Source: Rhynchopus sp. YZ270_cl-10 (Eukaryota). From it: a DNA stretch of 64,000 nt. A model generated the notes under the pieces. The model was not told the DNA's origin and searched no databases. It saw only the letters and a list, made by a program, of their open reading frames with translations. Location of the stretch: NCBI GenBank assembly GCA_964035575.1, contig OZ037834.1:434001-498000 (forward strand). The letters run 5' to 3'. Made by a program: the position numbers and the translations under genes. Shown piece by piece: positions 2,678 to 52,651 of this stretch (the stretch's first letter is position 1; each line of letters starts with the position of its first letter).

Positions 2678-4819
2678 ATGTTCCAAAGAGACTGCGTGAA
2701 CCCTTATTGTGACCGGAGAAGATGCCGAGAAAAGGTCGTCACGCGGATCCCTCTCAATATCATTGTGGCCCTTAAAAAATACTCCTACACCCAAGATAAT
2801 AAGGCCATTAAGAAAACGCTTAAATGTCATATCCCTCGCAGCGTAATCTTAAACGGTCACACATATTTCCTCGAAACTGCGGGAATCCACCAAGGTCCGT
2901 CGGCAACAACTGGTCATTATAGGTGTATACGCTTCCGCGGTCCTACAGGATTCAACACGCTGTTGGATGACCAATACCAGTATGCAATCAATGAGCGTTG
3001 CACGACAGAGCTTCTACAAAAAGAAGGGTACTTACTGGTGTTTAGGAGAGAGAAACCCAAGATCAATGGAACGCACCCTCCGACGCCAAACAGTGTACCC
3101 AATACCCCATACGGTAGCGAAAAGGAACCACGAGGTCCAACAGACCCCATTCCAAGCGCACAAGAGACCAAAACGTTCATAGCGAAGCCACCATCCACAG
3201 TAACCCATAAACAACAGGCAGCACCTAAAGTGGTAACTTACTGTGCGTCTCCGGTCAAACAGGCACCTCCCCCTTCTGTTACACCGGTTGCGAAACAGAG
3301 GGGTGCCCCCCCGTCAGTTGCCTTTGGATGCGGACAACAAAACGCCACTCCTTCCACAAAAGGAAAAAGCATGGACTTGGATGAAAATGTGTGGACAAAA
3401 AGTACTCTCAGGGAGAAACAAACCCCTATGAGACAAACAAGACCACCCGCAACGCCAATGACCGAAAGACATGTTGCTACCCCGGATATCAACATGAACC
3501 TCTTTACGTCGCCATACAATGAACAGAGACCAGGGGCACCTACCCCAATGAGAACAGGGAACCCTGAACTGCCCCAATATGGCACATCAACGTCTTTCAC
3601 GCCTACAAAGCAACCGGTGCAACAGGAAGCATGGAGTACAACAGAGACAATGCCTCCACCACCCATGCCTCCCCCAACAAAGGCACAAACGCCCAGGGTG
3701 CAGCCAAACGGCACAATGGAAGACGAAGCCCCTCCAACAAAGGGTTATGCAACACGTCCTCCTCCGCCAACAACGGCACATACACCTAGGATGCAACAAA
3801 GCGGCACAATGGAAGACGAAGCACCTCCAACGAGGGTCTATGCACCGCGTCCTCCTCCACCACCGCCACCTCCAACGGTGCCTCCTGAGGAGAGACAAGC
3901 AAGGACCACCGACGTTTTTTTCACATGTAAAAATGAAACTATTAAGAAAAAAGCATATCGATGGGACGAAATAGCATCCCCCGAAGGTGGAAGAAAGCGC
4001 AAAACTAGAGAGAACAAATGGACGCATGTCCCACCGAAGGGCACAAAGGCAAAAACACCCCAGCGGAAACATACGGCTTTAGTCGAACAGAACCAAAAGG
4101 GTACTAACAAGGCAGACCAAAAAGGAACGAAAAGGAAAACCAGGGCAACGGAAACTCCGAGCAAAAGCTCTGACCTCTTCAAATCACGTAGAGTGGACGC
4201 TGAGAAGCCCTCTGACCTCTCTAAAAGCCCTCAAACGACACAGGAGTCTCCAACGAAGGGTACAGCCTTACAGGAACCCGAAGAAGCTTATGAGTCGCAG
4301 AATCCATACACAAAACTTGCACGCAAAAAAAATAAAAGGAAGGAACACGACTCCGTACGGGCTTCACCTGGACATCTCCTCAAAAAGGCTAAAAAACAAG
4401 AGGCCACTGAGGAGCAAAGGACCAAGCAAAAAATCCAGGCCGAAACAAGGCCTACACCAAACAAGATACCGGAGAAAACTGGTCCAATAATGTGTCAGGG
4501 ATGTGAAAGATACTCCACAATTGGGGATGACACAATATTCACGGAGGAACTCTTAAAGAAGCATCAACGACGGTGTAAGGGATGGCGGGAGATGATGAAG
4601 TCTCCTGAAGTTTCGGAAGCATCCGGAGACGAAGCCATTTTCGAGGACTCCGAATCACAATCTGATTCCGAGCCTTCACTGGACTCCTGTGAAACTGACT
4701 TGACACGATTAACGTGCTCACTCTGTGGCAAAGGAACAACTAAAAAAGGACAGGCCTTTACCCCTTCTTCCTTAAAAAACCACAAAAGGCACTGCAAACT
4801 TTGGTCTGATGCAATATAA
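2678..4819 (+). CDS. 5'-truncated ORF: C-terminal half of a USP (peptidase C19) deubiquitinase domain, Pro/Thr/Lys-rich linker, two C2HC zinc fingers
   Basis: USP motifs: P-x-x-IIVALKK, His box YFLETAGIHQGPSATTGHY, LLDD, GYLLVFRR. No Cys box. Zinc fingers CQGC...HQRRC and CSLC...HKRHC. Internal ~93-bp duplication (GTMEDEAPPT twice). Confidence 0.75.
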   Translation: MFQRDCVNPYCDRRRCREKVVTRIPLNIIVALKKYSYTQDNKAIKKTLKCHIPRSVILNGHTYFLETAGIHQGPSATTGHYRCIRFRGPTGFNTLLDDQYQYAINERCTTELLQKEGYLLVFRREKPKINGTHPPTPNSVPNTPYGSEKEPRGPTDPIPSAQETKTFIAKPPSTVTHKQQAAPKVVTYCASPVKQAPPPSVTPVAKQRGAPPSVAFGCGQQNATPSTKGKSMDLDENVWTKSTLREKQTPMRQTRPPATPMTERHVATPDINMNLFTSPYNEQRPGAPTPMRTGNPELPQYGTSTSFTPTKQPVQQEAWSTTETMPPPPMPPPTKAQTPRVQPNGTMEDEAPPTKGYATRPPPPTTAHTPRMQQSGTMEDEAPPTRVYAPRPPPPPPPPTVPPEERQARTTDVFFTCKNETIKKKAYRWDEIASPEGGRKRKTRENKWTHVPPKGTKAKTPQRKHTALVEQNQKGTNKADQKGTKRKTRATETPSKSSDLFKSRRVDAEKPSDLSKSPQTTQESPTKGTALQEPEEAYESQNPYTKLARKKNKRKEHDSVRASPGHLLKKAKKQEATEEQRTKQKIQAETRPTPNKIPEKTGPIMCQGCERYSTIGDDTIFTEELLKKHQRRCKGWREMMKSPEVSEASGDEAIFEDSESQSDSEPSLDSCETDLTRLTCSLCGKGTTKKGQAFTPSSLKNHKRHCKLWSDAI

Positions 4820-7853: not shown

Positions 7854-8078
7854 AAAAACAAAACGAATTCAAGTGTCGGGGGAAGTACACTTACCTTATC
7901 AAGAAAGAGAGTCCACCCAGTCCGCTCTTCCCACAGCCGTCTCTTCTTCTCAATAGAAAGAAGGCCTGGGTTCATTCTTTTATGTGTCTGTTCTACTTCC
8001 CCCCCCACTTTGACATTTGTCAATAAAATAGTGGGAGCACATTCTTGGGTGTCAACACTAAACTGCAATATCCATAGA

Positions 8079-19048: not shown

Positions 19049-19535
19049 TGGTGCTTCCCGGGGGGTATGCATTTCACAAATTTTCAATTCAATTCACAAC
19101 TTTTCACAACTATTCACAACTTTTCACTACCCTTTTTTCTCTCGTTGGTGAAGCTTTTAAACGCCGGCATTTGCATTTCCGGAATCCGTCCGGCCAGTGG
19201 TGGGGTCAATTTGCCGAAATGGACAAGTTCTCGTCATTTCCGCACATCACACAGTACACAGGTACACAGGTACACCACATCACGTTCTATCTTGTGAATC
19301 CCAGCGTGCCCCTCAATGGGTGGGTCACCACCCGCCCAAAAAAAAAGCACTCACAAAAAAAAAATCAATTCACAACTTTTCACAACTATTCACAACTTTT
19401 CACATTTTTTCACAACTTTTCACCACTTTTCGCCAGCCTTCACAATTTTGTAGCAGTTTTCGTGTGGTGAAAATTTGTGAAAACTTGTCACATTTTGTGA
19501 AAATTTGTGAAATGCACACCCCCCGGGAAGCACCA
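19049..19535 (+). mobile_element. ~490-bp TIR element (MITE), copy 1
   Basis: ~38-bp TIR TGGTGCTTCCCGGGGGGT(A/G)TGCATTTCACAAATTTTCA. Subterminal TTCACAA arrays. Confidence 0.9.
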
Positions 19536-19559: not shown

Positions 19560-20014
19560 TGGTGCTTCCCGGGGGGTATGCATTTCACAAATTTTCAATT
19601 CAATTCACAACTTTTCACAACTATTCACAACTTTTCACCACCCTTTTTTCCTTCGTTGGTGAAGCTTTTAAATGCCGGCATTTGCATTTCCGGAATCCGT
19701 CCGGCCAGTGGTGGGGTCAATTTGCCGAAATGGACAAGTTCTCGTCATTTCCGCACAGTGCACAGTACACAGGTACACAGGTACAACACACCACGTTCTA
19801 TCTTGTGAATCCCAGCATACCCCTCAATGGGTGGGTCACCACCCAACCCAAAAAAAACTCAAATCAATTCACAACTTTTCACAACTTTTCACAATTTTTC
19901 ACCATTTTTCACCAGCCTTCACAATTTTATAGCGGTTTTCGTGTTGTGAAAACTTGTGAAAACTTGTCACATTTTGTGAAAATTTGTGAAATGCATACCC
20001 CCCGGGAAGCACCA
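19560..20014 (+). mobile_element. ~455-bp TIR element (MITE), copy 2, tandem to copy 1
   Basis: Same TIRs and body as copy 1, separated from it by 24 bp. Confidence 0.9.
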
Positions 20015-20646
20015 GCTCATTTATTTCTTTTATTTATTTTTTCCATCTTCTGTTGTTGGCTGCAGGGTACTTGCGCTTTCATTCGGGGCTGATATCGTAC
20101 GTGGGTCAGTCGGAGGTGCCTGCATCAACAGCTTCAATTTGGGTTTTTTTTTCCTTCGTTTTTCGCAAATTTCCGTGATCGGTGGATTTCATTCTTTTTT
20201 CTTTTTTCTTCTTTTTTTTGTACAGGTGCCCTCCGTTCTTGCAGAAGACAATGAACACCTTTTGTTCCATCCTCCTTTCCACGGTGGCAAGCACAGTGAA
20301 GAGACGACCTCAAAAAAAAAAAAAAACGCCTCTTTTCTTTCATATCCCTCCCCTTTTGAGGGGGGGCATTCATCTTCGAAATGGTTTCTTCCCAATTTTA
20401 TTTTTAAAATCTCACGAAAAAGAGAATAAAAAAAAATCCCATATCCCTCTAGTTTTTTTTGTCTCCTCCCTCAACACTAAACACACCTCCCCTCCCACCT
20501 TCCGTCTACAAAACGATCAAGCAAAATTAGACAGAGCACAAAGCACTTTCAAAACATACAAAAAAAAAACATTTTCAAACTCCCCTCCCACCTTCAACCC
20601 TTTTTCAGACCACTCTCCTACTCCCCCACACATCTCCACTTCCCTA

Positions 20647-22194
20647 ATGGACCGTCCAGCCAAACGCCGTCGTGTTGACGAAGGTAGCATCCTCCTTGCG
20701 CAGATGCTGCAATGCTCTGCAGGAGATATGGCAGTGTGCACTCCAGTACACCGTGCACGGATCCTCAGTGAACAGCTCGGGTGTGACGTGCATCTTAAGC
20801 GTGAAGACACACAGATCGGCTTTTCACATCATATACGTACTGCTTATACGTTGGTCTCCGCTTTGTCGGATGATGCACTGCACGGAAGGATTGTAGTAAC
20901 TGGACATGGAAATTTTGCGCACGCTGTCGCTCTTGCGCTAGACAGAGTGGTTGGGGAAAGCACAGCGCACGCCACCTCTTTAACCCTCACTGCGGTGCTG
21001 CCGGAGACAACCCCGTCGTTGTTGTTGAGACAGCTCAGGTCGTTTGTGTTTCGGTGTAACGCGGTTTTAGAGGTGGTCCTTGAAGGAAACACACAAAGCG
21101 CGACCCGAAAGCATGCCGATATTTTAGTCAAACAACACAACGCAGTTCTTTTGCAAAACACCGAAGGGTCTGAGGCAGTGGCAGCTGCAGGGTCTCTCGC
21201 GGTGGAGCTTTTCGCGCAACTCCCTTCTGTCGCGGGTACTGTGTATATTGGTGTAACGTCAGGAGCACTGTTAGCAGCGATCTCAGAATATGCGGCACAA
21301 ATTCACCCAGAAACTACAGTGGTAGCCGTTGAAGCGGAAGGTGAACACTCCTTATCAAAGAGATTAGCAAACGAAGAGCGATCCAACCGGACCGTACCAA
21401 ATGAGTATGCCGTCACCATCATTGCGAAGCACCTCAAATCGGGTCGAGTCCGGTTTCTGAGTGCCTCCCATGATGAGCAGTGCGCCGCAATAAAATCAGT
21501 ATTCCTCGACACCCGATCCATTCTTGAACCTGCCGGCGCATTGTCCGTCGCTGGGTTGAAGAAGGACGGTGTAAAAGAAAATGCAGGGATTGCTGTTGCG
21601 GTGCTTGGATCTGCAAATCTCGAGTTTACTACTCTCAGAAGTATTGCAGAACGCAGTGAAGAAAATGAAGTATTGGTTACCGTGGAGCTTCCAGAAGAGA
21701 ACGGCGCATTTAAAAGGATGTACAGCCATATTTACCCCCAACCGGTGACGGAGTTCTCTTATAGGTATGGAGGCGGGAAGAAGGCGGATGTGTTCATGTC
21801 GTTTGCAGTGAAGAGTGCGCAGGAAGGTGCTGCTGTGGTGTCGGCGTTAAATGGGAATGGGTTTCCGTGTACGCCACTGAAGGAGAATGAGCTGGCGAAG
21901 GCGCACGCTAGGTATCTAGTAGGGGGGAGAGGCGGGCCGGCAGATGAAAGGCTGCTGAGGTTTCAGTTTCCAGAGAATGGTGATGCCCTGCAGCAGTTTC
22001 TCGGGGCGTTGCCGGCGTTTGCAGGGGTGAGTCTCTTCCATTACCGCAACCATGGGGCAGATTTTGGCAAAGTGCTGGTAGGCATGAACGTGCCTGCGGA
22101 GCATGAAATCCGCTTTCAAACCTTCCTCTCCACAGTGGAATATGAATACACAGATGAAACATCGAACCCGTTTTATCGAATGTTTTTGAGGTGA
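20647..22194 (+). CDS. ilvA: Threonine dehydratase/deaminase (IlvA)-like protein, 515 aa, probably catalytically inactive, with intact C-terminal regulatory ACT-like domains
   Basis: Motifs TPV...LSEQLG..VHLKREDTQ, DTRSILEPAGALSVAG, SANLEF, TEFSYRY, NELAKAHARYLVGGR, ERLLRFQFPE, SLFHYRNHGAD, DETSNPFY. PLP-lysine site reads FSHHIRTAY. Start inferred at ATG 20647 (MDRPAKRRRV). Confidence 0.9.
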   Translation: MDRPAKRRRVDEGSILLAQMLQCSAGDMAVCTPVHRARILSEQLGCDVHLKREDTQIGFSHHIRTAYTLVSALSDDALHGRIVVTGHGNFAHAVALALDRVVGESTAHATSLTLTAVLPETTPSLLLRQLRSFVFRCNAVLEVVLEGNTQSATRKHADILVKQHNAVLLQNTEGSEAVAAAGSLAVELFAQLPSVAGTVYIGVTSGALLAAISEYAAQIHPETTVVAVEAEGEHSLSKRLANEERSNRTVPNEYAVTIIAKHLKSGRVRFLSASHDEQCAAIKSVFLDTRSILEPAGALSVAGLKKDGVKENAGIAVAVLGSANLEFTTLRSIAERSEENEVLVTVELPEENGAFKRMYSHIYPQPVTEFSYRYGGGKKADVFMSFAVKSAQEGAAVVSALNGNGFPCTPLKENELAKAHARYLVGGRGGPADERLLRFQFPENGDALQQFLGALPAFAGVSLFHYRNHGADFGKVLVGMNVPAEHEIRFQTFLSTVEYEYTDETSNPFYRMFLR

Positions 22195-22830: not shown

Positions 22831-25800
22831 ACCCGCAAACCCGCAAACCCGCAAACCGCAAACCCGCAAACCCGCAAACCGCAACCCGCAAACCCGCAAA
22901 CCCGCAAACCCGCAAACCCGCAAACCCGCAAACCCGCAAACCCGCAAACCCGCAAACCCGCAAACCCGCAAACCCGCAAACCCGCAACCCGCAAACCCGC
23001 AAACCCGCAAACCCGCAAACCCGCAAACCCGCAAACCCGCAAACCCGCAAACCCGCAAACCCGCAAACCCGCAAACCGCAAACCCGCAAACCCGCAAACC
23101 CGCAAACCCGCAAACCCGCAAACCCGCAAACCCGCAAACCCGCAAACCCGCAAACCCGCAAACCCGCAAACCGCAAACCCGCAAACCCGCAAACCCGCAA
23201 ACCCGCAAACCCGCAAACCCGCAAACCCGCAAACCGCAAACCCGCAAACCCGCAAACCCGCAAACCCGCAAACCCGCAAACCCGCAAACCCGCAAACCCG
23301 CAAACCCGCAAACCCGCAAACCCGCAAACCCGCAAACCCGCAAACCCGCAAACCCGCAAACCGCAAACCCGCAAACCGCAAACCGCAAACCCGCAAACCC
23401 GCAAACCCGCAAACCCGCAAACCCGCAAACCCGCAAACCCGCAAACCCGCAAACCCGCAAACCCGCAAACCCGCAAACCCGCAAACCCGCAAACCCGCAA
23501 ACCCGCAAACCCGCAAACCCGCAAACCCGCAAACCCGCAAACCCGCAACCCGCAAACCGCAAACCCGCAAACCCGCAAACCCGCAAACCCGCAACCCGCA
23601 AACCCGCAAACCCGCAAACCCGCAAACCCGCAAACCCGCAAACCCGCAAACCGCAAACCCGCAAACCCGCAAACCCGCAAACCCGCAAACCGCAAACCCG
23701 CAAACCCGCAAACCGCAAACCCGCAAACCCGCAAACCCGCAAACCCGCAAACCCGCAAACCCGCAAACCCGCAAACCCGCAAACCGCAAACCCGCAAACC
23801 CGCAAACCCGCAAACCCGCAAACCCGCAAACCCGCAAACCCGCAAACCCGCAACCGCAAACCCGCAAACCGCAAACCCGCAAACCCGCAAACCCGCAAAC
23901 CCGCAAACCCGCAAACCCGCAAACCCGCAAACCCGCAAACCCGCAAACCCGCAAACCCGCAAACCCGCAAACCCGCAAACCCGCAAACCCGCAAACCCGC
24001 AAACCGCAAACCCGCAAACCCGCAACCGCAAACCCGCAAACCCGCAAACCCGCAAACCCCGCAAACCCGCAAACCCGCAAACCCGCAAACCGCAACCGCA
24101 ACCCGCAAACCCGCAAACCCGCAACCCGCAAACCCGCAAACCGCAAACCGCAAACCCGCAAACCCGCAAACCCGCAAACCCGCAAACCCGCAAACCCGCA
24201 AACCGCAAACCGCAAACCCGCAAACCCGCAAACCCGCAAACCCGCAAACCCGCAAACCCGCAAACCCGCAAACCCGCAAACCAACCGCAAACCCGCAAAC
24301 CCGCAAACCCGCAAACCCGCAAACCCGCAAACCGCAAACCCGCAAACCCGCAAACCCGCAAACCCGCAAACCCGCAAACCCGCAAACCCGCAAACCCGCA
24401 AACCCGCAAACCCGCAAACCCGCAAACCCGCAAACCCGCAAACCCGCAAACCCGCAAACCCGCAAACCCGCAAACCCGCAAACGCAACCGCAAACCCGCA
24501 AACCCGCAAACCCGCAAACCCGCAAACCCGCAAACCCGCAAACCCGCAAACCCGCAAACCCGCAAACCCGCAAACCCGCAAACCCGCAAACCCGCAAACC
24601 CGCAAACCCGCAAACCCGCAAACCCGCAAACCCGCAACCCGCAAACCCGCAAACCCGCAAACCGCAACCCGCAAACCCGCAAACCCGCAAACCCGCAAAC
24701 CCGCAAACCCGCAAACCCGCAAACCCGCAAACCCGCAAACCCGCAAACCCGCAAACCCGCAAACCCGCAAACCCGCAAACCCGCAAACCGCAACCGCAAA
24801 CCCGCAAACCCGCAAACCCGCAAACCCGCAAACCCGCAAACCCGCAAACCCGCAAACCCGCAAACCCGCAAACCCGCAAACCCGCAACCCGCAAACCCGC
24901 AAACCCGCAAACCCGCAAACCCGCAAACCCGCAAACCCGCAAACCCGCAAACCGCAAACCGCAAACCCGCAAACCCGCAAACCCGCAAACCCGCAAACCC
25001 GCAAACCCGCAAACCCGCAAACCCGCAAACCCGCAAACCCGCAAACCCGCAAACCCGCAAACCCGCAAACCCGCAAACCCGCAAACCCGCAAACCCGCAA
25101 ACCCGCAAACCCGCAAACCCGCAAACCCGCAAACCCGCAAACCCGCAAACCCGCAAACCGCAAACCCGCAAACCCGCAAACCCGCAAACCCGCAAACCCG
25201 CAAACCCGCAAACCGCAAACCCGCAAACCCGCAAACCCGCAAACCGCAAACCCGCAAACCCGCAAACCCGCAAACCCGCAAACCCGCAAACCCGCAAACC
25301 CGCAAACCCGCAAACCCGCAAACCCGCAAACCCGCAAACCCGCAAACCCGCAAACCCGCAAACCCGCAAACCCGCAAACCCGCAAACCCGCAAACCCGCA
25401 AACCCGCAAACCCGCAAACCCGCAAACCCCGCAAACCCGCAAACCCGCAAACCCGCAAACCCGCAAACCCGCAAACCCGCAAACCCGCAAACCCGCAAAC
25501 CCGCAAACCGCAAACCCGCAAACCCGCAAACCCGCAAACCCGCAAACCCGCAAACCCGCAAACCCGCAAACCCGCAAACCCGCAAACCCGCAAACCCGCA
25601 AACCCGCAAACCCGCAAACCCGCAAACCCGCAAACCCGCAAACCCGCAAACCCGCAAACCCGCAAACCCGCAAACCCGCAAACCCGCAAACCCGCAAACC
25701 GCAAACCCGCAAACCCGCAAACCCGCAAACCCGCAAACCCGCAAACCCGCAAACCCGCAAACCCGCAAACCCGCAAACCCGCAAACCCGCAAACCCGCAA

Positions 25801-28800
25801 ACCCGCAAACCCGCAAACCCGCAAACCCGCAAACCCGCAAACCCGCAAACCCGCAAACCCGCAAACCCGCAAACCCGCAAACCCGCAAACCCCGCAAACC
25901 CGCAAACCCGCAAACCCGCAAACCCGCAAACCCGCAAACCCGCAAACCCGCAAACCCGCAAACCCGCAAACCCGCAAACCGCAAACCCGCAAACCCGCAA
26001 ACCCGCAAACCCGCAAACCCGCAAACCCGCAAACCCGCAAACCCGCAAACCCGCAAACCCGCAAACCCGCAAACCCGCAAACCCGCAAACCCGCAAACCC
26101 GCAAACCCGCAAACCGCAAACCCGCAAACCCGCAAACCCGCAAACCCGCAAACCCGCAAACCCGCAAACCCGCAAACCCGCAAACCCGCAAACCCGCAAA
26201 CCCGCAAACCCGCAAACCCGCAAACCCGCAAACCCGCAAACCCGCAAACCCGCAAACCCGCAAACCCGCAAACCCGCAAACCCGCAAACCCGCAAACCCG
26301 CAAACCCGCAAACCCGCAAACCCGCAAACCCGCAAACCCGCAAACCCGCAAACCCGCAAACCCGCAAACCCGCAAACCCGCAAACCCGCAAACCCGCAAA
26401 CCCGCAAACCCGCAAACCCGCAAACCCGCAAACCCGCAAACCCGCAAACCCGCAAACCCGCAAACCCGCAAACCCGCAAACCCGCAAACCCGCAAACCCG
26501 CAAACCCGCAAACCCGCAAACCCGCAAACCCGCAAACCCGCAAACCCGCAAACCCGCAAACCCGCAAACCCGCAAACCCGCAAACCCGCAAACCCGCAAA
26601 CCCGCAAACCCGCAAACCCGCAAACCCGCAAACCCGCAAACCCGCAAACCCGCAAACCCGCAAACCCGCAAACCCGCAAACCCGCAAACCCGCAAACCCG
26701 CAAACCAAACCCCAAACCCGCAAACCCGTAAACGCAAACCCGAAACCGCAAACCCCGCAAACCCGCAAACCGCAAACCCGCAAACCCGCAAACCCGCAAA
26801 CCGCAAACCGCAAACCCGCAAACCCGCAAACCCGCAAACCCGCAAACCCGCAAACCCGCAAACCCGCAAACCCGCAAACCCGCAAACCGCAAACCCGCAA
26901 ACCCGCAAACCCGCAAACCCGCAAACCACCGCAAACCCGCAAACCCGCAAACCCGCAAACCCGCAAACCCGCAAACCCGCAAACCCGCAAACCCGCAAAC
27001 CCGCAACCCGCTAACCCGCAAACCCGCAAACCCGCAAACCCGCAAACCCGCAAACCCGCAAACCCGCAAACCCGCAAACCCGCAAACCCGCAAACCGCAA
27101 ACCCGCAAACCCGCAAACCCGCAAACCCGCAAACCCGCAAACCCGCAAACCCGCAAACCCGCAAACCCGCAAACCCGCAAACCGCAAACCCGCAAACCCG
27201 CAAACCCGCAAACCCGCAAACCCGCAAACCCGCAAACCCGCAAACCCGCAAACCCGCAAACCCGCAAACCCGCAAACCGCAAACCCGCAAACCCGCAAAC
27301 CCGCAAACCCGCAAACCCGCAAACCCGCAAACCCGCAAACCGCAAACCCGCAAACCCGCAAACCCGCAAACCCGCAAACCCGCAAACCCGCAAACCCGCA
27401 AACCCGCAAACCCGCAAACCCGCAAACCCGCAAACCCGCAAACCCGCAAACCGCAAACCCGCAAACCCGCAAACCCGCAAACCCGCAAACCCGCAAACCC
27501 GCAAACCCGCAAACCCGCAAACCCGCAAACCCGCAAACCCGCAAACCCGCAAACCCGCAAACCCGCAAACCCGCAAACCCGCAAACCCGCAAACCGCAAA
27601 CCCGCAAACCCGCAAACCCGCAAACCCGCAAACCCGCAAACCCGAAAACCCGCAAACCCGCAAACCCGCAAACCCGCAAACCCGCAAACCCGCAAACCCG
27701 CAAACCCGCAAACCCGCAAACCCGCAAACCCGCAAACCCGCAAACCCGCAAACCCGCAAACCCGCAAACCCGCAAACCCGCAAACCCGCAAACCCGCAAA
27801 CCCGCAAACCCGCAAACCCGCAAACCCGCAAACCCGCAAACCCGCAAACCCGCAAACCCGCAAACCCGCAAACCCGCAAACCCGCAAACCCGCAAACCCG
27901 CAAACCCGCAAACCCGCAAACCCGCAAACCCGCAAACCCGCAAACCCGCAAACCCGCAAACCCGCAAACCCGCAAACCCGCAAACCCGCAAACCCGCAAA
28001 CCCGCAAACCCGTAAACCCGCAAACCGTACCCGCAAACCCGCAAACCCGCAAACCCGCAAACCCGCAAACCCGCAAACCCGCAAACCCGCAACCCGCAAA
28101 CCCGCAAACCCGCAAACCCGCAACCCGCAACCCGCAAACCCGCAAACCCGCAAACCGCAAACCCGCAAACCCGCAAACCCGCAAACCCGCAAACCCGCAA
28201 ACCCGCAAACCCGCAAACCCGCAAACCCGCAAACCCGCAAACCCGCAAACCCGCAAACCGCAAACCCGCAAACCCGCAAACCCGCAAACCCGCAAACCCG
28301 CAAACCCGCAAACCCGCAAACCCGCAAACCCGCAAACCCGCAAACCCGCAAACCCGCAAACCCGCAAACCCGCAAACCCGCTAAACCCGCAAACCCGCAA
28401 ACCCGCAAACCCGCAAACCCGCAAACCCGCAAACCCGCAAAACCCGCAAACCCGCAAACCCGCAAACCCGCAAACCCGCAAACCCGCAAACCCGCAAACC
28501 CGCAAACCCGCAAACCGCAAACCCGCAAACCCGCAAACCCCAACCCGCAAACCCGCAAACCCAAACCCGCAAAACCCGCAAACCCGCAAACCCGCAAACC
28601 CGCAAAACCCGCAAACCGCAAACCCGCAACCCGCAAACCCGCAAACCCGCAAACCCGCAAACCCGTAAACCCGCAAACCCGCAAACCCGCAAACCCGCAA
28701 ACCGCAAACCCGCAAACCCGCAAACCCGCAAACCCGCAAACCCGCAAACCCGCAAACCCGCAAACCCGCAAACCCGCAAACCCGCAAACCCGCAAACCCG

Positions 28801-31397
28801 CAACCAACCCGCAAACCCGCAACCCGCAAACCCGCAAACCCGCAAACCCGCAAACCCGCAAACCCGCAAACCCGCAAACCCGCAAACCCGCAAACCCGCA
28901 AACCCGCAAACCCGCAAACCCGCAAACCCGCAAACCCGCAAACCCGCAAACCCGCAAACCCGCAAACCCGCAAACCCGCAAACCCGCAAACCCGCAAACC
29001 CGCAAACCCGCAAACCCGCAAACCCGAAACCCGCAAACCCGCAAACCCGCAACCGCAAACCCGCAAACCCGCAAACCCGCAAACCCGCAAACCCGCAAAC
29101 CCGCAAACCCGAAAACCCGCAAACCGCAAACCCGCAAACCCGCAAACCCGCAAACCCGCAAACCCGCAAACCCGCAAACCCGCCCCAAACCCGCAAACCC
29201 GCAAACCCGCAAACCCGCAAACCCGCAAACCCCGCAAACCCGCAAACCCGCAAACCCGCAAACCCGCAAACCCGCAAACCCGCAAACCCGCAAACCCGCA
29301 AACCCGCAAACCCGCAAACCCGCAAACCCGCAAACCCGCAAACCCGCAAACCCGCAAACCCGCAAACCCGCAAACCCGCAAACCCGCAAACCCGCAAACC
29401 CGCAAACCCGCAAACCCGCAAACCCGCAAACCCGCAAACCCGCAAACCCGCAAACCCGCAAACCCGCAAACCCGCAAACCCGCAAACCCGCAAACCCGCA
29501 AACCCGCAAACCCGCAAACCCGCAAACCCGCAAACCCGCAAACCCGCAAACCCGCAAACCCGCAAACCCGCAACCCGCAAACCCGCAAACCCGCAAACCC
29601 GCAAACCCGCAAACCCGCAAACCCGCAAACCCGCAAACCCGCAAACCCGCAAACCCGCAAACCCGCAAACCCGCAAACCCGCAAACCCGCAAACCCGCAA
29701 ACCCGCAAACCCGCAAACCCGCAAACCCGACCCCAAACCCGCAAACCCGCAAACCCGCAAACCCGCAAACCCGCAAACCCGCAAACCCGCAAACCCGCAA
29801 ACCCGCAAACCCGCAAACCCGCAAACCCGCAAACCCGCAAACCCGCAAACCCGCAAACCCGCAAACCCGCAAACCCGCAAACCCGCAAACCCGCAAACCC
29901 GCAAACCCGCAAACCCGCAAACCCGCAAACCCGCAAACCCGCAAACCCGCAAACCCGCAAACCCGCAAACCCGCAAACCCGCAAACCCGCAAACCCGCAA
30001 ACCCGCAAACCCGCAAACCCGCAAACCCGCAAACCCGCAAACCCGCAAACCCGCAAACCCGCAAACCCGCAAACCCGCAAACCCGCAAACCCGCAAACCC
30101 GCAAACCCGCAAACCCGCAAACCCGCAAACCCGCAAACCCGCAAACCCGCAAACCCGCAAACCCGCAAACCCGCAAACCCGCAAACCCGCAAACCCGCAA
30201 ACCCGCAAACCCGCAAACCCGCAAACCCGCAAACCCGCAAACCCGCAAACCCGCAAACCCGCAAACCCGCAAACCCGCAAACCCGCAAACCCGCAAACCC
30301 GCAAACCCGCAAACCCGCAAACCCGCAAACCCGCAAACCCGCAAACCCGCAAACCCGCAAACCCGCAAACCCGCAAACCCGCAAACCCGCAAACCCGCAA
30401 ACCCGCAAACCCGCAAACCCGCAAACCCGCAAACCCGCAAACCCGCAAACCCGCAAACCCGCAAACCCGCAAACCCGCAAACCCGCAAACCCGCAAACCC
30501 GCAAACCCGCAAACCCGCAAACCCGCAAACCCGCAAACCCGCAAACCCGCAAACCCGCAAACCCGCAAACCCGCAAACCCGCAAACCCGCAAACCCGCAA
30601 ACCCGCAAACCCGCAAACCCGCAAACCCGCAAACCCGCAAACCCGCAAACCCGCAAACCCGCAAACCCGCAAACCCGCAAACCCGCAAACCCGCAAACCC
30701 GCAAACCCGCAAACCCGCAAACCCGCAAACCCGCAAACCCGCAAACCCGCAAACCCGCAAACCCGCAAACCCGCAAACCCGCAAACCCGCAAACCCGCAA
30801 ACCCGCAAACCCGCAAACCCGCAAACCCGCAAACCCGCAAACCCGCAAACCCGCAAACCCGCAAACCCGCAAACCCGCAAACCCGCAAACCCGCAAACCC
30901 GCAAACCCGCAAACCCGCAAACCCGCAAACCCGCAAACCCGCAAACCCGCAAACCCGCAAACCCGCAAACCCGCAAACCCGCAAACCCGCAAACCCGCAA
31001 ACCCGCAAACCCGCAAACCCGCAAACCCGCAAACCCGCAAACCCGCAAACCCGCAAACCCGCAAACCCGCAAACCCGCAAACCCGCAAACCCGCAAACCC
31101 GCAAACCCGCAAACCCGCAAACCCGCAAACCCGCAAACCCGCAAACCCGCAAACCCGCAAACCCGCAAACCCGCAAACCCGCAAACCCGCAAACCCGCAA
31201 ACCCGCAAACCCGCAAACCCGCAAACCCGCAAACCCGCAAACCCGCAAACCCGCAAACCCGCAAACCCGCAAACCCGCAAACCCGCAAACCCGCAAACCC
31301 GCAAACCCGCAAACCCGCAAACCCGCAAACCCGCAAACCCGCAAACCCGCAAACCCGCAAACCCGCAAACCCGCAAACCCGCAAACCCGCAAACCCG
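22831..31397. repeat. (AAACCCGC)n tandem array, ~8.57 kb, ~1,070 units; telomere-like or satellite
   Basis: Direct reading. Frequent 1-nt indel variants on the left, essentially perfect from ~29740 to 31397. Bounded by gaps on both sides. Confidence 0.98.
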
Positions 31398-31597: not shown

Positions 31598-33648
31598 CAG
31601 GTTTGTATCCTTGGAATTTTCTTCAAGATATCTCCCAACACCAGCTGCAACGAGTGCGAGCTGCAACGATAGACAAAAATGCCTTCGTTTTTCAGCACTT
31701 TGTCGCACTCGGCCAAGATGCTCTCCATAGTGGAGGCAGCCTCCTCACTCGTGTCACATGCCTCAGTTTCCTCACAGCTGGGGGTGAGACTCTCGTCAAA
31801 CGCGTCGTCGCCAGTCTCACTCCCACTGTCTCCCTCTTCGCACACCTCGGTGAAGATGGCATCCGTCTCAGCTGTCCACTCGCTGTCAGTTGCATGCAAC
31901 TGAGTGAGTGCCTTTTGGATGACAGCTGCGTTGTCAGCGACAGCGCTGAAGACGTTGATCTGTGCATCTTTCAAGGTGCTGAGAACCCCCCTGATAGCGG
32001 TGCCGATGGCTTCCGCATCATTGACGCCCTTTATCTCGACGTCGTCGAGGAAGTATGCGACCCCTTTGCAGGTCATGCCAAACCCCAGGTACGTCCTGCG
32101 TGAGCAGGTGGCACCATCAAGCATCATGAAGACGTCTTGTCCTCGGAGTTTCTCAAACACCTCTTTTTTCGTTTTCCCCGCGAGGATAATGATTTTTTTT
32201 GAGATGGTGTCAGGGAAGATGTTCTTCCCCTCCAAATACTCCCGCGGGAGTATTTTACGAAAGGCGCTTCCTGAACGCAAAAGAGAAAAGGGGAGGTTGT
32301 TTTCTGCGAAAACAAACGCAAGCAGTTCTTCGTAGTTGTCGAACCCGAGTGCACCTTCAAAAGGAGTTTGAGGCGCAGCACTGTCCGCATGGACAGGAGC
32401 TGCTCCAATCTCATTTTGAACTGGTGGGGTGTGAGGCAGAGGCTGGGACTGTGACAATGAGTCCTCGGCAGAGGGTGCATCTGTCTGCAGCCCAGCCCCG
32501 TTGTTCTTTTTTTCTTTGATGTGAAATTTTTGGACATGCCGCCTCATCGAGTCGATGTTCAGCTGCATCTTGCTTCCACAGTCCTCCATCAGACACCAAG
32601 CCGTTTTGTTGGGCCCATAAAAAAAAAAGTCTTGGGGAACCTTGCTATTCCACTTTTTAGGGTAGTCAGCCTTTGTTACTTTGTCATAGTCAGGAACAGA
32701 GGATGCCGCCGGAGCATCGGAAGATGCTGGAGCAGTATTCTCTGTTGCTGTATTGGTTACAGGTTCCGCTGGCCCTGAGATTTCATTGTCCTCACTATTT
32801 TTTTCTTTTTTTTTTTCTTCTCTATTCTGAGATAAAATGTGGACGACCTTCACGGTCCGCATGTCCGGATCCTCGCACGGGAGGTCCACTTCTTTTCCGT
32901 CCTCGTGCTTGACACGAGCACCCCACCCCCCCAAAATTTTTGCCACCACCTGTGCCTTGCTTGTACATACCTGTTCCTCCTTGTCGATCCAGGAGTGGAA
33001 AATCTGGTTCTGCTTCTTCAGTTCTCGCACACTCTTGGTCACGGACCCGTCGGATTGCCTTCTTTTCCTCACGCTTCCACTGACTCTCTGTTTCTGTGGC
33101 TTAGATGGTGCCGCCACCTTGGGCTTTGGCGATTTTTTTTTTGTTGTGTCTTTTTTTGGGGGGAGAACCTTCGAGTCTGTTCCAGAGTCTGAGTCAAACT
33201 CTGAGTCTGGGACAGACTGCGAGTCTGGCGCGTTAAAAAATTCTCTCACAACGTGTTCGTGCTTCGGTGGAGGGGAAGTCGCTGTAAAGCCGACTGTCCG
33301 TAACCTCCCACTATCCGCGGGGATGGGGAATGGGGCTTCGACAAAAATGTCGTTTTCTTGTGTGTGAACAAAATAATGTACTGTTAAACGAGGAGAAGCT
33401 GTGCTCTCCCTTGATTTGTCCTTGTCGACAATCAGACCTTCCCATGCTCTTATTTCCTTCCCATCTTGCCACTTGTGCAAAATCCACATACCTGGTTGTA
33501 GGTCTGCGAGCTGCCTGTCTGACGACCCCGTCATCTCGTGCACATCCTCAAGCTTCGAGTCGAGGTCGTCGCGACACTTCCAGATGTCGGGATTCCATCC
33601 CGGGCACTTCTTGGCGCAGGGGGAACACAAGCATACGGGGCAGTTCAT
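31598..33648 (-). CDS. hAT-superfamily transposase, 3' part lost in the gap
   Basis: BED-type finger WCLMEDC...MRRHVQKFH, ENNLPFSLL..AFRK, first catalytic D in MMLDGAT, second in VADNAAVIQKA, CxxH motif YRCSSHSLQLV. Open for ~680 codons. Confidence 0.9.
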
Positions 33649-45063: not shown

Positions 45064-48000
45064 ATGGTGTGGCGCGCACTGTTTGCTGTGTGTGTGGTGC
45101 TGGTGTTGCCTCCGGTTGCAGGAGAGGAGGATGAACAGATGGACCTCGAGGTGGTGACGGAGGTGGTCTCCATGGATTCACGCAGTGCAATGGTGTTGAA
45201 CCACGTGAACACGCTTCCTGGGGGCGGGACGCCGAATCACAACCCTTTGTTTGATGCAGGACCATCCATCACGGTTGTGGAGGACAGTGGGATTTACGGG
45301 CCGCGTCCGTGGGCGACGAATATCGTTGATGGGGATGGTCCGCTTGATGCGTTGTTGCGTCCGACAGACAGTGGACGGCAGTCTGTCCGGTTTGTCGTGG
45401 TTGCGCAGCAGGCCTACCTCTTCGATGGGCCTGCAGGGCAGCCGCAGGTCACAAACCAAGGTTTTCTGACGTTCACCCCTGCGCCAGACCAATGTGGTGT
45501 AACATCCGTGACAGTAGAGCTGCGTGACGATGGCAACCCTGCCTGTGTTGACGGAGCCCCTGCAGGAGCACCGCTCTTCGTCTGCCCCGGAGCCTGCCAA
45601 CCTGCAGACTGCTCTGTAAGCGTGGAGGTTCAGTTCACCATCACCATTGTCTGCGTTAATGACCCGCCACGCTTCACAGATTTGGGTGACCAGACAAGCA
45701 CAGAAGATGCAGGGCTGATCACCGTCAACAACTGGGCCTTCAATGTAAACAAAGGTGCAGGAGACAGCCGTACTGCGATCACCAACTTCGAGCTCGAGCA
45801 GCTGCTCACATTCTCCGTTTCCATTGTGTCTGGTGCAGAGCTTTTCAGTGTGGGGCCACAGATTCTTTGGAACTCGCTTGACCCAACCACAGCGGACCTG
45901 ACCTACCAGACTGCTCCAGGGGCATGCGGTATTGCAGTGATCGCAGTCGGGCTGACAGACAACGGTGGCACTGCGAATGGCGGGTCTGACACTATGGTAC
46001 CGGAGCGCACCTTCCAGATCACGATTGAGTGCGACAATGACCCGCCCTCTTTTACCTGCGGCGATGCGGTTGTGATTGACGAAGACTTTGGTCCGTACAC
46101 ACAGTCGAACTGGGCCACGCAGATCAGCAAGGGGAACGGCTTCAACGATGGAAACGAGAATGCACAACAACTCTTCTTTGACCTGGAGTTTGCGAACCCT
46201 GGGGACGCGAACCTGTTTCTGACCCCGCCACGCATTGACCCTGCTACTGGAACACTTCAGTTCGAGGCGAAGGCTGACGCCAACACAGGTGGACGCAACG
46301 TCGAGCTCTATGTACGTCTCCGCGACGACGGCGGCATGGCGCCACGAGACCGCTCCTGCGACCCGATCTCTGCCTGCTGCAAGCTTCTCATCGTCATCAA
46401 CCCCATCAACGACCCACCCAGCTTCACATGCGGGCCTGACATCATCATCTGCGAGGACCTCATGAACCTCCCCGTCACGCCAACACCACCGATCTACACA
46501 GACGGAACGAACTGGGCAAGGAACATCAACATCGGTGCTGTCAACGAGGGGATTGGGTTGGGGCAGGAGGGGCAGCAGCTAGTGTTCACCCTGACGAATA
46601 CGAATCAGGGGATGTTCGTGCGGCAGCCGTCGCTCGATTCGGCAGGGACGCTGACGTTTGAGCTCCAGCCGAATGCAAATGGTGTTGCGGTTGTGACTGT
46701 AAACAGTGCGGACACAGGGTCGGTTGGGCCGCCGGGGTCGAACCAGGGCCCGACCTGCCAGTTCACGATCACAGTGCTGCCGGTCTCGGATGCACCAACG
46801 TTCACACTCCCTGCAACACAGCCGCTGATTGTGCACGAGGATGACCCACCCTCCCTGACGGACTTCCCCACCTTCATGACGAACATCAACCGTGGGCCCC
46901 TTGATGAGGCTGGCCAGGTCATCTCTCTGAGTGTTGAGAACAGCAACACGGCGCTGTTCACGGTGCAGCCACGGTTGGAGATGATTTCGACGAACACAGC
47001 GAGGCTTGCGTTTGAGCTGGCACCGGATATGTGCGGGCAGGCGATCCTGCATATTACGGTTGCAGATGATGGGGACATACAACAGTGCAACGGCAAAGGA
47101 CAGTCGACGACGACAGCGAACTACACTATCAAGGTGGAATGCGAGAACGACCCACCATCATTCCACCTGGGGCCTGTGTGCTGTGCGAAGAAGACAACCT
47201 GCACAGGAGACGTATGCGCCATCATCCTCTGCGAGGACGACGCGGTCAACGGCTACACACAGACCGGGTTCGCAACCAACATTGTCCCTGGTCCCGATAA
47301 GTTCGACGAGAACGACCAGACCGTCGCCTTCATTGTCAACACCGACAACTCACAGCTCTTCTCCACACCCCCGTCGATATCCCCCTCGGGCACTCTCACC
47401 TTCACCACCGCTAAAGATATGTACGGCGACGCAACGATGTCCGTCTCGCTTGTCGACAGTGGGGTACCTCCTAGGTCCTCCGAGGTACAACAGTATGTCA
47501 TCAATGTGCGCCCCTCTAACGACCCACCGGTGTTCTCGATTCGTGGGGACCTGATTGGGACCAGTGTTCTGGAGTGTGTGGTGCCGTATGAGCCGCGTGG
47601 GTGTTCGTTCCTGTCTAATGCGCCTGGCTGTGCACGCACCTTCCCTAGCTGGATCTACGATGCGGCACCTGGGCCCACGAACGAAGCCTTGCAGGGCATG
47701 ACCTTCAAGGTGGAGGTAGGCAACGCGGCAGATGACCTCTTCACGGTGCTTCCCACCATCGATATGTCCGGGACACTGTCGTTCACTCTCAAGCCCGGTG
47801 CGGTGACGTCGTCGCCCATCACCCTCATCATCACCGCAACAGACGACGGGAACTCCATCCAAGGCGGAGTCATGAACGGTCAGGCAACCTGCCCAGGTTC
47901 GGACACCACCGTGCAGACCCTGCAGTTTGAAATCATGAACGTAAACAACCCACCCTGCTTCACCTGCGGCACCACCAAAGAGGTCTTGGAGGACTCCGGG

Positions 48001-51000: not shown

Positions 51001-52651
51001 CACCCAACAGACGAATGAAGTCAAATCCAACACAATCAACACCGTTGTCCGCCCGCAGTGGGCATCTGGGATGTCTCCTGGCCCTGCGGATGAGATAAAC
51101 CAAAAGGTATTTCCCTCCTTCCACCCCCCCAACCCTCCATAGACCACATGCCACCCATGGGAGAGGGAGATCTCGTATAATCAAGAAACGTCCCACCCCT
51201 TTCCGCATGAGCCCGACTGAGATGTCGTTTCAGCGCGTTTCAAACTACTCTTTGCTACGTCACAGTCTCTTTTGTTTTTATCATCAGATTCCTTTAAAAT
51301 TGACATTTTAAGCGAAGGTACATCTCATCTAAATACACAATAGGCTATATCCCCAATGAAACCCGCACCTGATATATCAACCATACCACATCCACACACA
51401 TCCACACAAACACAGCTCCAATTCCTCACAACCGTGGACAAGCCTGGGATGTTCGTAAAGCTCCCTGAAGTGTCGATCCCTAATGGTGACCTTACCTTCG
51501 AGGTCGTCCCCGATGTGAACGGTGTTGTTGTGGTTCAGGTTGTGCTCCAGGACGACGGTGGTACTGCCAACGGCGGCATCGACAAGACGGACACAGCAAG
51601 CTTCAAGATCACCATTGTCAGTCTCAACGACGTTCCCTCCTTTGTGCCTGGAGACCGCGTTCTTCGTGTCCCCATCAACAGCGGGCCCTACGAGCTGCAG
51701 TGGGCTACACAGATCACCGCAGGACCTGCTGATGAAAACCAACTGGTTCACTTCTCCCTTAATGTTCTTCGGCCTGATCTTTTTGCAGCAGATGGACAAC
51801 CACAGCTCACACCTGATGGACGTTTGCTTTATACCCCTGCACCAGGTGTTATCGGGAATAGTAGTGTGATTGTGACTGCAGTGGATTCAACAGGGTTGAC
51901 ATCGTTGCCGCAGGAGTTTATCATCCAGGTCTTCAACCCTGCAGAAACGCCGCTCCCTTCGCGGGCACCAGAGTTGAACTTCTCTGAGGATGACCAAGGC
52001 TTTCCTTGGTGGGCGATTTTGCTGTTGGTGTTGGGGGTGCTGCTTGCACTGTGCGCCTGCGGGGCGTTGGCATGGTGGCTCCGCAAACGCCAGAAGGAAG
52101 AAGAAGAGGCGGAACTGGAAGAAGAAGAGATTCGTCGCCATCAACAGGTTTACGGAGTCGATTCAGACATTAAAGAAGCAGGACCTGCTCCATCTGACAC
52201 AGCGACCACTATCTCTGGGCAAGACGACCCAACCCGCCACCTTGCCGTCAACCCCATGCACACCAACACAATACAAGAAGTAAACCCGATCGACAACGCA
52301 TTTTCAGTGTATTCGTCTAAGGCCCCTTCACTTCGCCAGCAGCAGCCGATGGATTACCCTGCACATCGTGGTCGGTCTGCTATCTCCGCAGGGGACCATC
52401 AAATGAACGCCAATGGAGGCAATGGAGGTGTTCCTGCCTACTCTGTGCATCATCAAGAGAGCGGCCTGACCGCAGGCCACAATATGTACAACACCACCGC
52501 CCCAGCCTCCATGGGCTACCCTGAGAGCGATCCTGACGTAATGATTTTCCCTGCGCAAGGCAACCCTGAAGGGATGCACACCACACAACCCCAAGCACCA
52601 ACGATACAAGCCCTCCAGAATAACCCTCTTTATTATGGAGCATTGGGCTGA
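45064..52651 (+). CDS. ~2,325-aa type I membrane protein with ~17 cadherin-like/Ig-like (VNDxP) repeats; exons 45064-50709, 51011-51106, 51416-52651
   Basis: Signal peptide MVWRALFAVCVVLVLPPVAG. Recurrent (V/I)ND(P/A)PxF, EDxG, GxLxFxxAP and DDGG motifs. GT-AG phase-0 introns keep the repeat register. TM helix FPWWAILLLVLGVLLALCACGALAWWL followed by RKRQK and a cytoplasmic tail. Confidence 0.9.

What the first reader, a model, noticed from the sequence alone, without database searches (positions are those of the whole stretch)
20647..22194. Threonine-deaminase pseudoenzyme with intact regulatory domains and an NLS-like motif
Seen: the PLP Schiff-base motif SFKxRGA reads SHHIRTA (Lys to His, CAT at 20830-20832). 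SAGNHAQG reads GHGNFAHA, and the GGGG phosphate loop reads GVTSGA. The C-terminal regulatory domains are well conserved, the 515-codon ORF is uninterrupted, and the N-terminus is MDRPAKRRRV. Established: the lysine is essential in fold-type II PLP enzymes, and the IlvA C-terminal ACT-like domains bind Ile/Val. Trypanosomatids use dead paralogues as activators (AdoMetDC prozyme, deoxyhypusine synthase, PRMT1). Inference: either a prozyme-like subunit of an active IlvA or a repurposed, possibly nuclear, branched-chain amino-acid sensor.
Basis: partly seen in the sequence, partly recalled or inferred. Interest (0 to 1): 0.75.

Follow-up and report, generated by a model that had tools for sequence, protein, structure and literature searches.

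The report
Dead threonine-deaminase subunit in diplonemids
Marine diplonemid protists keep two copies of the classic feedback-regulated enzyme threonine deaminase: this one has lost its catalytic residues but kept its regulatory domain, the other has kept its active site but lost key regulatory residues, so the two likely work as one complex in which the dead copy controls the live one.

Summary
Observation confirmed. The gene is a two-ACT IlvA homologue with the PLP lysine replaced by His, and the substrate and phosphate loops broken. Independent contigs match the DNA. It is no pseudogene: 7 orthologues in other diplonemids all lack the lysine, and the D. papillatum one is detected as protein. 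A paralogue with intact catalytic motifs is found in 3 of the 5 named species that have the dead copy; this window's genome could not be searched. New here is complementary decay. Dead copies keep isoleucine-pocket Phe463 and loop-L22 Asp471 (8/8), which in E. coli are proposed to act on the neighbouring subunit's active site. Full-length Diplonemidae active copies have lost both (0/4). Best reading: a heteromer in which the dead subunit supplies the regulatory domain in trans (about 0.55; binding untested). Against a plain isoleucine relay: dead copies carry G445D/E (7/8), a feedback-resistance change in E. coli, and this gene lacks Asn459. The NLS-like motif is shared by active copies, so it does not mark nuclear repurposing; location is unresolved. 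The scan earlier noted a different dead IlvA in Bdellovibrionota.

The parts
20568..20608 (+). Pyrimidine-rich tract ending in AG (20607-20608), likely the trans-splice acceptor; no further AG or ATG before ATG 20647
   Evidence: 73% pyrimidine; AG and ATG positions; use as acceptor is inferred, no RNA seen
20647..22194 (+). Intronless ORF, 515 aa, catalytically degenerate two-ACT threonine deaminase (IlvA) paralogue of Diplonemidae
20656..20673 (+). Basic motif PAKRRR (NLS-like); the same kind of motif is in 7 of 8 dead and 5 of 5 active diplonemid copies, 0 of 298 outside IlvAs
20830..20832 (+). His62 (CAT) in place of the PLP Schiff-base Lys62; H,H,H,H,C,Y,Q,H across the 8 dead copies
20902..20925 (+). 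Substrate-carboxylate loop GHGNFAHA (Ser86->Gly and His90->Phe in 8 of 8 dead copies)
21256..21267 (+). PLP phosphate loop TSGA in place of GGGG (E. coli G189 and G191 lost in 8 of 8 dead copies)
21367..21396 (+). Region of the substrate loop L10, shortened by about 8-10 residues in this gene; remodelled to N(H/T)F(V/A)(E/D)(G/S)TA in the other 7 dead copies
21607..21609 (+). Gly321 in place of E. coli Ser315 (Gly in 7 of 8 dead copies); the role of Ser315 at the PLP ring nitrogen is recalled
21622..21657 (+). Neck helix (326-337), part of the predicted dimer interface; dead copies share Glu326 (8 of 8) and lack Arg329 and Phe332
21658..22191 (+). Two ACT-like subdomains with dimer helices H17 and H20 kept; Ile-pocket E347, G350, F352, Y369, F463 equivalents kept in this gene
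   Evidence: pocket residues from PMC12224302
21982..21984 (+). Asp446 in place of E. coli Gly445 (D/E in 7 of 8 dead copies, 0 of 298 outside)
22024..22026 (+). Gly460 in place of Ile-binding Asn459 (Asn kept in 6 of 8 dead copies)
22060..22065 (+). Asp472-Phe473 = E. coli loop L22 Asp471-Tyr472; kept in 8 of 8 dead copies, Gly-Thr in 4 of 4 full-length Diplonemidae active copies

Best explanation
This gene encodes a threonine-deaminase paralogue that has lost its PLP lysine and active-site loops but kept its dimer helices and regulatory domain, and it likely serves as the regulatory subunit of a mixed complex with the catalytically intact diplonemid paralogue. Shown: loss of the catalytic residues in all 8 orthologues, co-occurrence with an intact paralogue in three named species, and complementary loss of regulatory residues in the intact copies. 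Inferred: after a duplication the two copies kept pairing through the neck and ACT helices; because IlvA regulation is proposed to run from one subunit's regulatory domain to the neighbour's active site, only the dead copy's regulatory domain faces a working active site, so selection kept its Ile pocket and loop L22 and let the active copy's decay. Inferred with less confidence: the dead subunit is needed to hold the active copy in a productive state (prozyme-like) and passes on a branched-chain amino-acid signal in altered form.
For: Lys62 absent in 8 of 8 dead copies, present in 5 of 5 diplonemid intact copies and 297 of 298 outside IlvAs. Dead clade 100*. Intact paralogues in F. neradi and L. 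lanifica and D. papillatum. Same-time contrast F. neradi vs L. lanifica: catalytic domain 126/287 identical (dead) vs 180/292 (intact), p 2e-5; ACT2 49/68 (dead) vs 37/68 (intact), p 0.05. Phe463 and Asp471 kept in 8/8 dead, lost in 4/4 full-length Diplonemidae intact copies, kept in Artemidia; 0 of 298 outside IlvAs lack both. PMC12224302 places D471'/Y472' against L10 of the adjacent protomer; intact copies keep canonical L10, dead copies have it remodelled or deleted. Predicted F. neradi heterodimer: ipSAE 0.77, best of 3 controls 0.00, runs agree in at least 94% of contacts, partner pLDDT at least 85; the mark was reached by 51 of 78 solved and 2 of 108 mismatched microbial pairs, and by 71 of 105 solved and 2 of 126 unrelated eukaryote pairs. 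A like complex is solved, so this shows likeness only. Dead copies are invariant at 37 of 70 predicted interface columns vs 95 of 433 others. Both copies share the N-terminal basic motif. DIPPA_30908 is among 4,870 proteins detected in P. papillatum. EcIlvA without its regulatory domain keeps under 1% of its activity (PMC13476584).
Against: No experiment shows binding; the kept interface fits a dead homodimer equally well. Dead copies have G445D/E (7/8) and lack Arg362 (7/8); G445E and R362F are listed as isoleucine-resistant in E. coli. Asn459 is Gly in this gene and Ser in L. lanifica. [quoted passage not shown] No intact paralogue was found for R. euleeides or D. japonicum, and no dead one for D. 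ambulator or Artemidia (candidate caps and 50% clustering limit these searches); the window's own genome is not held. The D. papillatum intact model (435 aa) ends before H17/ACT2, which is either a gene-model error or would remove a dimer helix. The losses in each clade are single inherited events, so the counts are not independent. The sister relation of dead and intact diplonemid copies is the best tree found but not shown (lnL +2.5, p-AU 0.58; free trees leave it open).
Confidence: 0.55

Rival explanations
1. Stand-alone branched-chain amino-acid sensor: the dead copy forms its own homodimer, binds Ile/Val and signals to another partner, possibly in the nucleus.
For: Ile-pocket residues E347, F352, Y369, F463 invariant in 8/8 dead copies; 28 dead-specific near-invariant positions, e.g. 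H61, F90, E326, N252; NLS-like motif in 7/8; dead and intact copies only 33-42% identical.
Against: Does not explain why intact copies lost Phe463, Asp471 and Tyr472. The basic motif is also in 5/5 intact copies. DIPPA_30908 is low in the 1K fraction where histone H2A peaks (0.03-0.08 vs 0.51-0.59), though its profile is not reproducible.
Confidence: 0.2
2. Obligate structural partner without a regulatory role: the heteromer arose by neutral mutual dependence after duplication, and the enzyme is no longer feedback-regulated.
For: G445D/E in 7/8 dead copies and Arg362 lost in both paralogues, changes that are feedback-resistant in E. coli; Asn459 lost in this gene; interface columns conserved.
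Against: The ACT1 half of the Ile pocket and Phe463 are invariant in dead copies, and most of these do not lie in the predicted interface.
Confidence: 0.14
3. New PLP-independent activity or ligand site in the remodelled catalytic domain.
For: Dead-specific conserved residues in the old active site: His61 (7/8), Phe90 (8/8), NHF loop; the fold is predicted intact (mean pLDDT 81.9).
Against: Position 62 varies (H, C, Y, Q); no conserved replacement lysine in the active-site segments checked; loop L10 is deleted in this gene; the catalytic domain is the fastest-changing part.
Confidence: 0.08
4. Pseudogene or assembly error.
For: No RNA run could be examined.
Against: Contigs of 4 runs match the DNA; open frames kept across species at 44-55% identity with 132 invariant columns; 4 orthologues come from assembled transcripts; the D. 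papillatum orthologue is detected by mass spectrometry.
Confidence: 0.02

Closest known systems
Biosynthetic threonine deaminase IlvA with two ACT-like domains (TIGR01124; E. coli 1TDJ/9D2Q, P. aeruginosa 8Y1J)
   Same: Full-length homology (29-34% identity in the structural alignments), same domain order, neck and dimer helices.
   Different: No PLP lysine, broken substrate and phosphate loops; IlvA is a homotetramer of identical active subunits (PMC12224302).
Trypanosomatid prozymes (DHS: PMC3663545 abstract; AdoMetDC PMC5201418 and PRMT1 10.1101/776112, search listing only)
   Same: Euglenozoan dead paralogue beside a catalytically intact one; activation through a heteromer is the proposed mode.
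   Different: Different folds; complex and activation are proven there and untested here; here the dead copy also keeps a small-molecule allosteric domain that the intact copy has partly lost.
Thermus thermophilus GdhA/GdhB glutamate dehydrogenase (as described in PMC9570180 passages)
   Same: Catalytically inactive paralogue acting as regulatory subunit for a branched-chain amino acid in a heteromer.
   Different: Unrelated fold; leucine activates; bacterial.
Plant TSB-like pseudoenzyme (PMC12727527 abstract and section 8)
   Same: Fold-type II PLP family pseudoenzyme that keeps allosteric control of a partner.
   Different: Partner is a different protein (TSA), not its own paralogue; inactivated mainly by two substitutions (E190A, D386E), not by loss of the whole cofactor site.
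Dead short-form IlvA in Bdellovibrionota (earlier scan note e1-1231016, unchecked)
   Same: IlvA homologue without PLP lysine and glycine loop, regulatory domain kept.
   Different: One ACT domain, bacterial, K->R; no sequence look-alike to this gene was found in the scan.

Membership tests
Biosynthetic threonine deaminase IlvA (two ACT) | PALP domain + neck + two Thr_dehydrat_C subdomains | tested here: met
Biosynthetic threonine deaminase IlvA (two ACT) | PLP Schiff-base lysine (E. coli K62) | tested here: not met
   His62; lost in 8 of 8 orthologues
Biosynthetic threonine deaminase IlvA (two ACT) | Substrate loop S86/H90, loop L10 and GGGG phosphate loop | tested here: not met
   S86G, H90F, TSGA, L10 shortened
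Biosynthetic threonine deaminase IlvA (two ACT) | NCBIfam TIGR01124 cut-off | tested here: not met
   346.4 bits against 411.3
Biosynthetic threonine deaminase IlvA (two ACT) | Isoleucine pocket residues of 9D2R | tested here: inconclusive
   E347, G350, F352, Y369, A377, F463 kept; N459->G, W458->A; relay residues G445->D, R362->Q
Prozyme-type dead paralogue / regulatory subunit | Catalytic residues lost but protein conserved and expressed | tested here: met
Prozyme-type dead paralogue / regulatory subunit | Catalytically intact paralogue in the same genome | tested here: inconclusive
   Found in 3 of 5 named species with the dead copy; the window's own genome is not held
Prozyme-type dead paralogue / regulatory subunit | Physical complex with the intact paralogue | tested here: inconclusive
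   Model passes (0.77 vs best control 0.00; 51 of 78 solved, 2 of 108 mismatched) but a like complex is solved, so likeness only
Prozyme-type dead paralogue / regulatory subunit | Activation or regulation of the intact copy | not testable with these tools
   needs enzyme assays
Nuclear amino-acid sensor | Nuclear localisation | tested here: inconclusive
   Motif matches K(K/R)x(K/R) (pattern recalled) in both paralogues; DIPPA_30908 fraction profile irreproducible, r -0.05 to 0.24 between replicates; its class row lay beyond the stored 3,120 of 4,870 rows

The most novel reading that the evidence does not exclude
Diplonemids have split threonine deaminase into a catalytic subunit with a decayed sensor and a dead subunit with a working sensor, so that feedback runs only in trans; both carry a nuclear signal, placing the first step of isoleucine synthesis and its amino-acid sensor in the nucleus; and the same split may have arisen more than once in eukaryotes (a second lysine-less clade with kept regulatory domain).
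Probability: 0.2. Interest if true: 0.88.

Novelty: new variant of a known kind. Interest (0 to 1): 0.7.

Why it matters
Threonine deaminase is a founding model of allostery, yet two recent E. coli papers disagree on whether a regulatory domain touches its neighbour's active site. A natural pair with one dead active site and one decayed regulatory domain would test cross-subunit control directly, and P. papillatum can be tagged and knocked out. It would extend prozyme-style regulation from trypanosomatids to their abundant marine sister group and to amino-acid synthesis. It also warns that annotation counts DIPPA_30908-like genes either as 'hypothetical' or as working IlvA.

Tried and rejected
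Own-genome search: no genome held, so the intact paralogue of this species is unchecked. Sequencing runs: no RNA holder listed. Metagenome scan with the dead alignment: 80 loci kept of 593; 71 showed the motif and all 71 have Lys; no new dead copy. ESM Atlas: only ordinary IlvA clusters. Rfam: 0 matches in the window. Promoter scan uninformative for a eukaryote. Upstream 132-codon extension rejected. dN/dS not computed: no orthologue DNA in hand. Supplement searches of PMC7052976, PMC8611851 and PMC12699882 gave no threonine-deaminase row; PMC10161547 gave only DIPPA_23478, identity unresolved and absent from the proteome table. DIPPA_04637 (K01754, PTS1, best hit in Bodo saltans, weak to yeast Ilv1) looks like a different family and was not taken as the partner. 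Position of Artemidia relative to the duplication: unresolved (dead + Diplonemidae intact only: lnL -5.5, p-AU 0.26; shared rare residues point both ways). The careful tree did not finish; quick trees were used. Own slips: the labels S86-G93 are shifted by one (query numbers are right; searches used); one bacterial row was mislabelled as diplonemid; the motif count had a slicing error and was redone.

Full report
OBSERVATION. Window 20647-22194 (+) is an open 515-codon frame beginning MDRPAKRRRV. It matches PALP and two Thr_dehydrat_C stretches, scores 346 bits on TIGR01124 against a cut-off of 411, and aligns end to end with solved IlvA proteins. The AlphaFold model (mean pLDDT 81.9) finds 8Y1J, 9D2Q and 1TDJ first. 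E. coli Lys62 aligns with His62 (CAT, 20830-20832). Ser86 and His90, which PMC12224302 docks against the threonine carboxylate, are Gly and Phe; the GGGG loop is TSGA; loop L10 is shortened (52-residue segment against 59-69 in 298 outside IlvAs). Contigs from 4 of 4 runs laid, 2 studies, show no other letter or gap in the ORF. A longer frame from ATG 20251 exists, but it lacks the codon-position GC pattern, and a pyrimidine tract with AG at 20607-20608 leaves ATG 20647 first; I infer that the basic motif is translated.

A CONSERVED DIPLONEMID CLADE. The 7 best hits (44-55% identity, then a drop to 39%) are from Rhynchopus euleeides, Flectonema neradi, Lacrimia lanifica, Diplonema japonicum, D. 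papillatum (DIPPA_30908) and two unnamed ENA records. All 8 lack the lysine (H,H,H,H,C,Y,Q,H); 297 of 298 outside IlvAs keep it (the 298 are the top hits plus three cluster members, one fragment dropped, so not a random sample). No conserved replacement lysine lies in the active-site segments checked. The clade has 100* support. A profile search of 1.84 billion representatives returned only two representatives of this clade, at 847-882 bits, then a drop to 449; none of the other 148 listed had a dead copy as best hit. Dead copies keep 57-67 of 114 conserved catalytic-domain positions but 51-53 of 63 regulatory ones. DIPPA_30908 is in Table A of the P. papillatum proteome, 4,870 proteins after quality control. 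A pseudogene is therefore very unlikely.

AN INTACT PARALOGUE. Copies with all catalytic motifs exist in F. neradi, L. lanifica, D. ambulator, Artemidia motanka and one unnamed ENA record, and in D. papillatum (KAJ9469926.1, a 435-aa model ending before ACT2). So 3 of the 5 named species with the dead copy are shown to have both; none was found for R. euleeides or D. japonicum, within searches capped at 8000 candidates or clustered at 50%. 'Intact' is a sequence statement; activity is unmeasured. Diplonemid intact copies form a clade (98-99*). The tree that joins them with the dead clade is the best found but not proven (lnL +2.5, p-AU 0.58); five residues rare elsewhere are shared. PMC7052976 reports that diplonemids keep a full set of amino-acid synthesis genes (passage), and acetolactate synthase and ketol-acid reductoisomerase are assigned to the mitochondrial matrix in P. 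papillatum.

COMPLEMENTARY DECAY. Between F. neradi and L. lanifica, the same time span for both genes, the catalytic domain is 126/287 identical in dead and 180/292 in intact copies (p 2e-5); ACT2 is 49/68 in dead and 37/68 in intact copies (p 0.05). Ile-pocket Phe463 and loop-L22 Asp471 are kept in 8/8 dead copies and lost in 4/4 full-length Diplonemidae intact copies (Leu; Gly-Thr); Asn459 is kept in 6/8 and 1/4; Artemidia keeps all three; 0 of 298 outside IlvAs lack both Phe463 and Asp471. PMC12224302 proposes that isoleucine bound to one protomer acts on the neighbour, with L20' and L22' (D471', Y472') placed against L10. In a dead-intact heterodimer the kept L22 would face the kept L10 and the decayed L22 would face the remodelled or deleted L10, which is the pattern seen. 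These losses are probably single inherited events, so the counts overstate independence.

EVIDENCE AGAINST. Dead copies have Asp/Glu at Gly445 (7/8; 0 of 298 outside) and lack Arg362 (7/8; also lost in 4/4 Diplonemidae intact copies); G445E and R362F are listed as isoleucine-resistant in E. coli. This gene has Gly at Asn459. [quoted passage not shown] So a simple isoleucine relay is doubtful; activation or scaffolding with an altered signal is as likely within the heteromer reading.

COMPLEX MODEL. F. neradi intact (21-527) with dead (134-625): ipSAE 0.77 in three runs, best of 3 controls 0.00, at least 94% contact agreement, partner pLDDT at least 85. The mark was reached by 51 of 78 solved and 2 of 108 mismatched microbial pairs, and by 71 of 105 solved and 2 of 126 unrelated eukaryote pairs; close cousins of true partners passed 10 of 12 times. 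IlvA dimers are solved, so the pass shows likeness, not binding, and no homodimer was folded. Among the 8 dead copies 37 of 70 predicted interface columns are invariant against 95 of 433 others: the protein still oligomerises, with itself or the paralogue.

THE BASIC MOTIF. K(K/R)x(K/R) (pattern recalled) occurs in the N-terminal extension of 7/8 dead and 5/5 intact diplonemid copies and 0/298 outside (2/298 by a looser rule; 122 have extensions of 12 or more residues); the D. papillatum intact copy begins MAAKRKRD. The motif is thus shared by both paralogues, fits a common location, and does not single out the dead copy as nuclear. The DIPPA_30908 fraction profile is low where histone H2A peaks but is not reproducible between replicates (r -0.05, 0.24, -0.01), one tag-validated nuclear protein is also noisy, and the class row was beyond the 3,120 of 4,870 rows stored. 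Location is open.

KNOWN KIN AND NOVELTY. It fails membership as an IlvA enzyme. It would work like trypanosomatid prozymes (PMC3663545 abstract; PMC5201418 and 10.1101/776112 seen in a listing only), Thermus GdhA (passages of PMC9570180) and plant TSB-like (abstract and one section of PMC12727527). Six searches of the held library listed no paper on a dead IlvA paralogue, in diplonemids or elsewhere; subscription journals are not covered. Read of PMC12224302: abstract, sections 19, 20, 23, 28, passages; PMC13476584: abstract, section 7, first parts of 5 and 9; PMC12697944: passages, section 7, supplement rows; PMC7052976 and PMC12699882: passages and supplement searches; PMC8611851 and PMC10161547: supplement searches only. 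The scan noted a one-ACT dead IlvA in Bdellovibrionota (e1-1231016, unchecked). Other lysine-less two-ACT IlvAs turned up: a 99* clade of unnamed eukaryote records near Phaeocystis and a Fusarium protein; the free tree keeps them apart from the diplonemid clade but does not reject joining the first (p-AU 0.18).

VERDICT. Real, conserved, expressed in a relative; most likely the regulatory subunit of a heteromeric diplonemid threonine deaminase (0.55). New variant of a known kind; interest 0.7.

Noticed in passing
proteins P0320/P0461 (Logan) and P0332/P0462 (JGI): A second clade of two-ACT IlvA homologues without the PLP lysine (K->N) and with a broken SAGNHAQG loop but kept regulatory domain (99*), near Phaeocystis IlvA in the tree; P0461 has a transit-peptide-like N-terminus by eye. 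Possibly a convergent dead subunit.
   Followed up: partly
protein P0432 (Fusarium avenaceum KAG5661969.1): Lysine-less, strongly diverged IlvA paralogue in a fungus, with both domains degenerate.
   Followed up: partly
protein P0363 (D. papillatum KAJ9469926.1): The intact IlvA gene model stops before helix H17 and ACT2 (435 aa); probably a missed exon, or a true loss of ACT2.
   Followed up: no
window 19049-19535 and 19560-20014: Two tandem MITE-like elements of about 470 nt with 72-nt terminal inverted repeats; contig depths there are orders of magnitude above the gene's.
   Followed up: partly
window 22831-31397: 8-nt satellite (ACCCGCAA) of about 1,080 copies, flanked by N gaps.
   Followed up: no
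window 31603-33648 (-): Open frame with a weak DUF659 match (E 0.008, below cut-off), likely a hAT-type transposase running into the gap and satellite.
   Followed up: partly
window 45064-52651 (+): Very large membrane-anchored protein of bacterial Ig-like/cadherin-like repeats (Big_9, Cadherin_4/5), in two ORFs that are likely one intron-split gene.
   Followed up: no
window 2678-4819 (+): ORF with an N-terminal UCH-like stretch (E 7e-5, just under cut-off) followed by low-complexity repeats and C-terminal Cys/His clusters.
   Followed up: no
proteins P0124, P0126, P0149, P0151, P0044, P0363: Catalytically intact diplonemid IlvAs carry N-terminal basic clusters rather than an evident mitochondrial presequence (by eye, no predictor run), while ALS and KARI are assigned to mitochondria in P. 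papillatum.
   Followed up: partly
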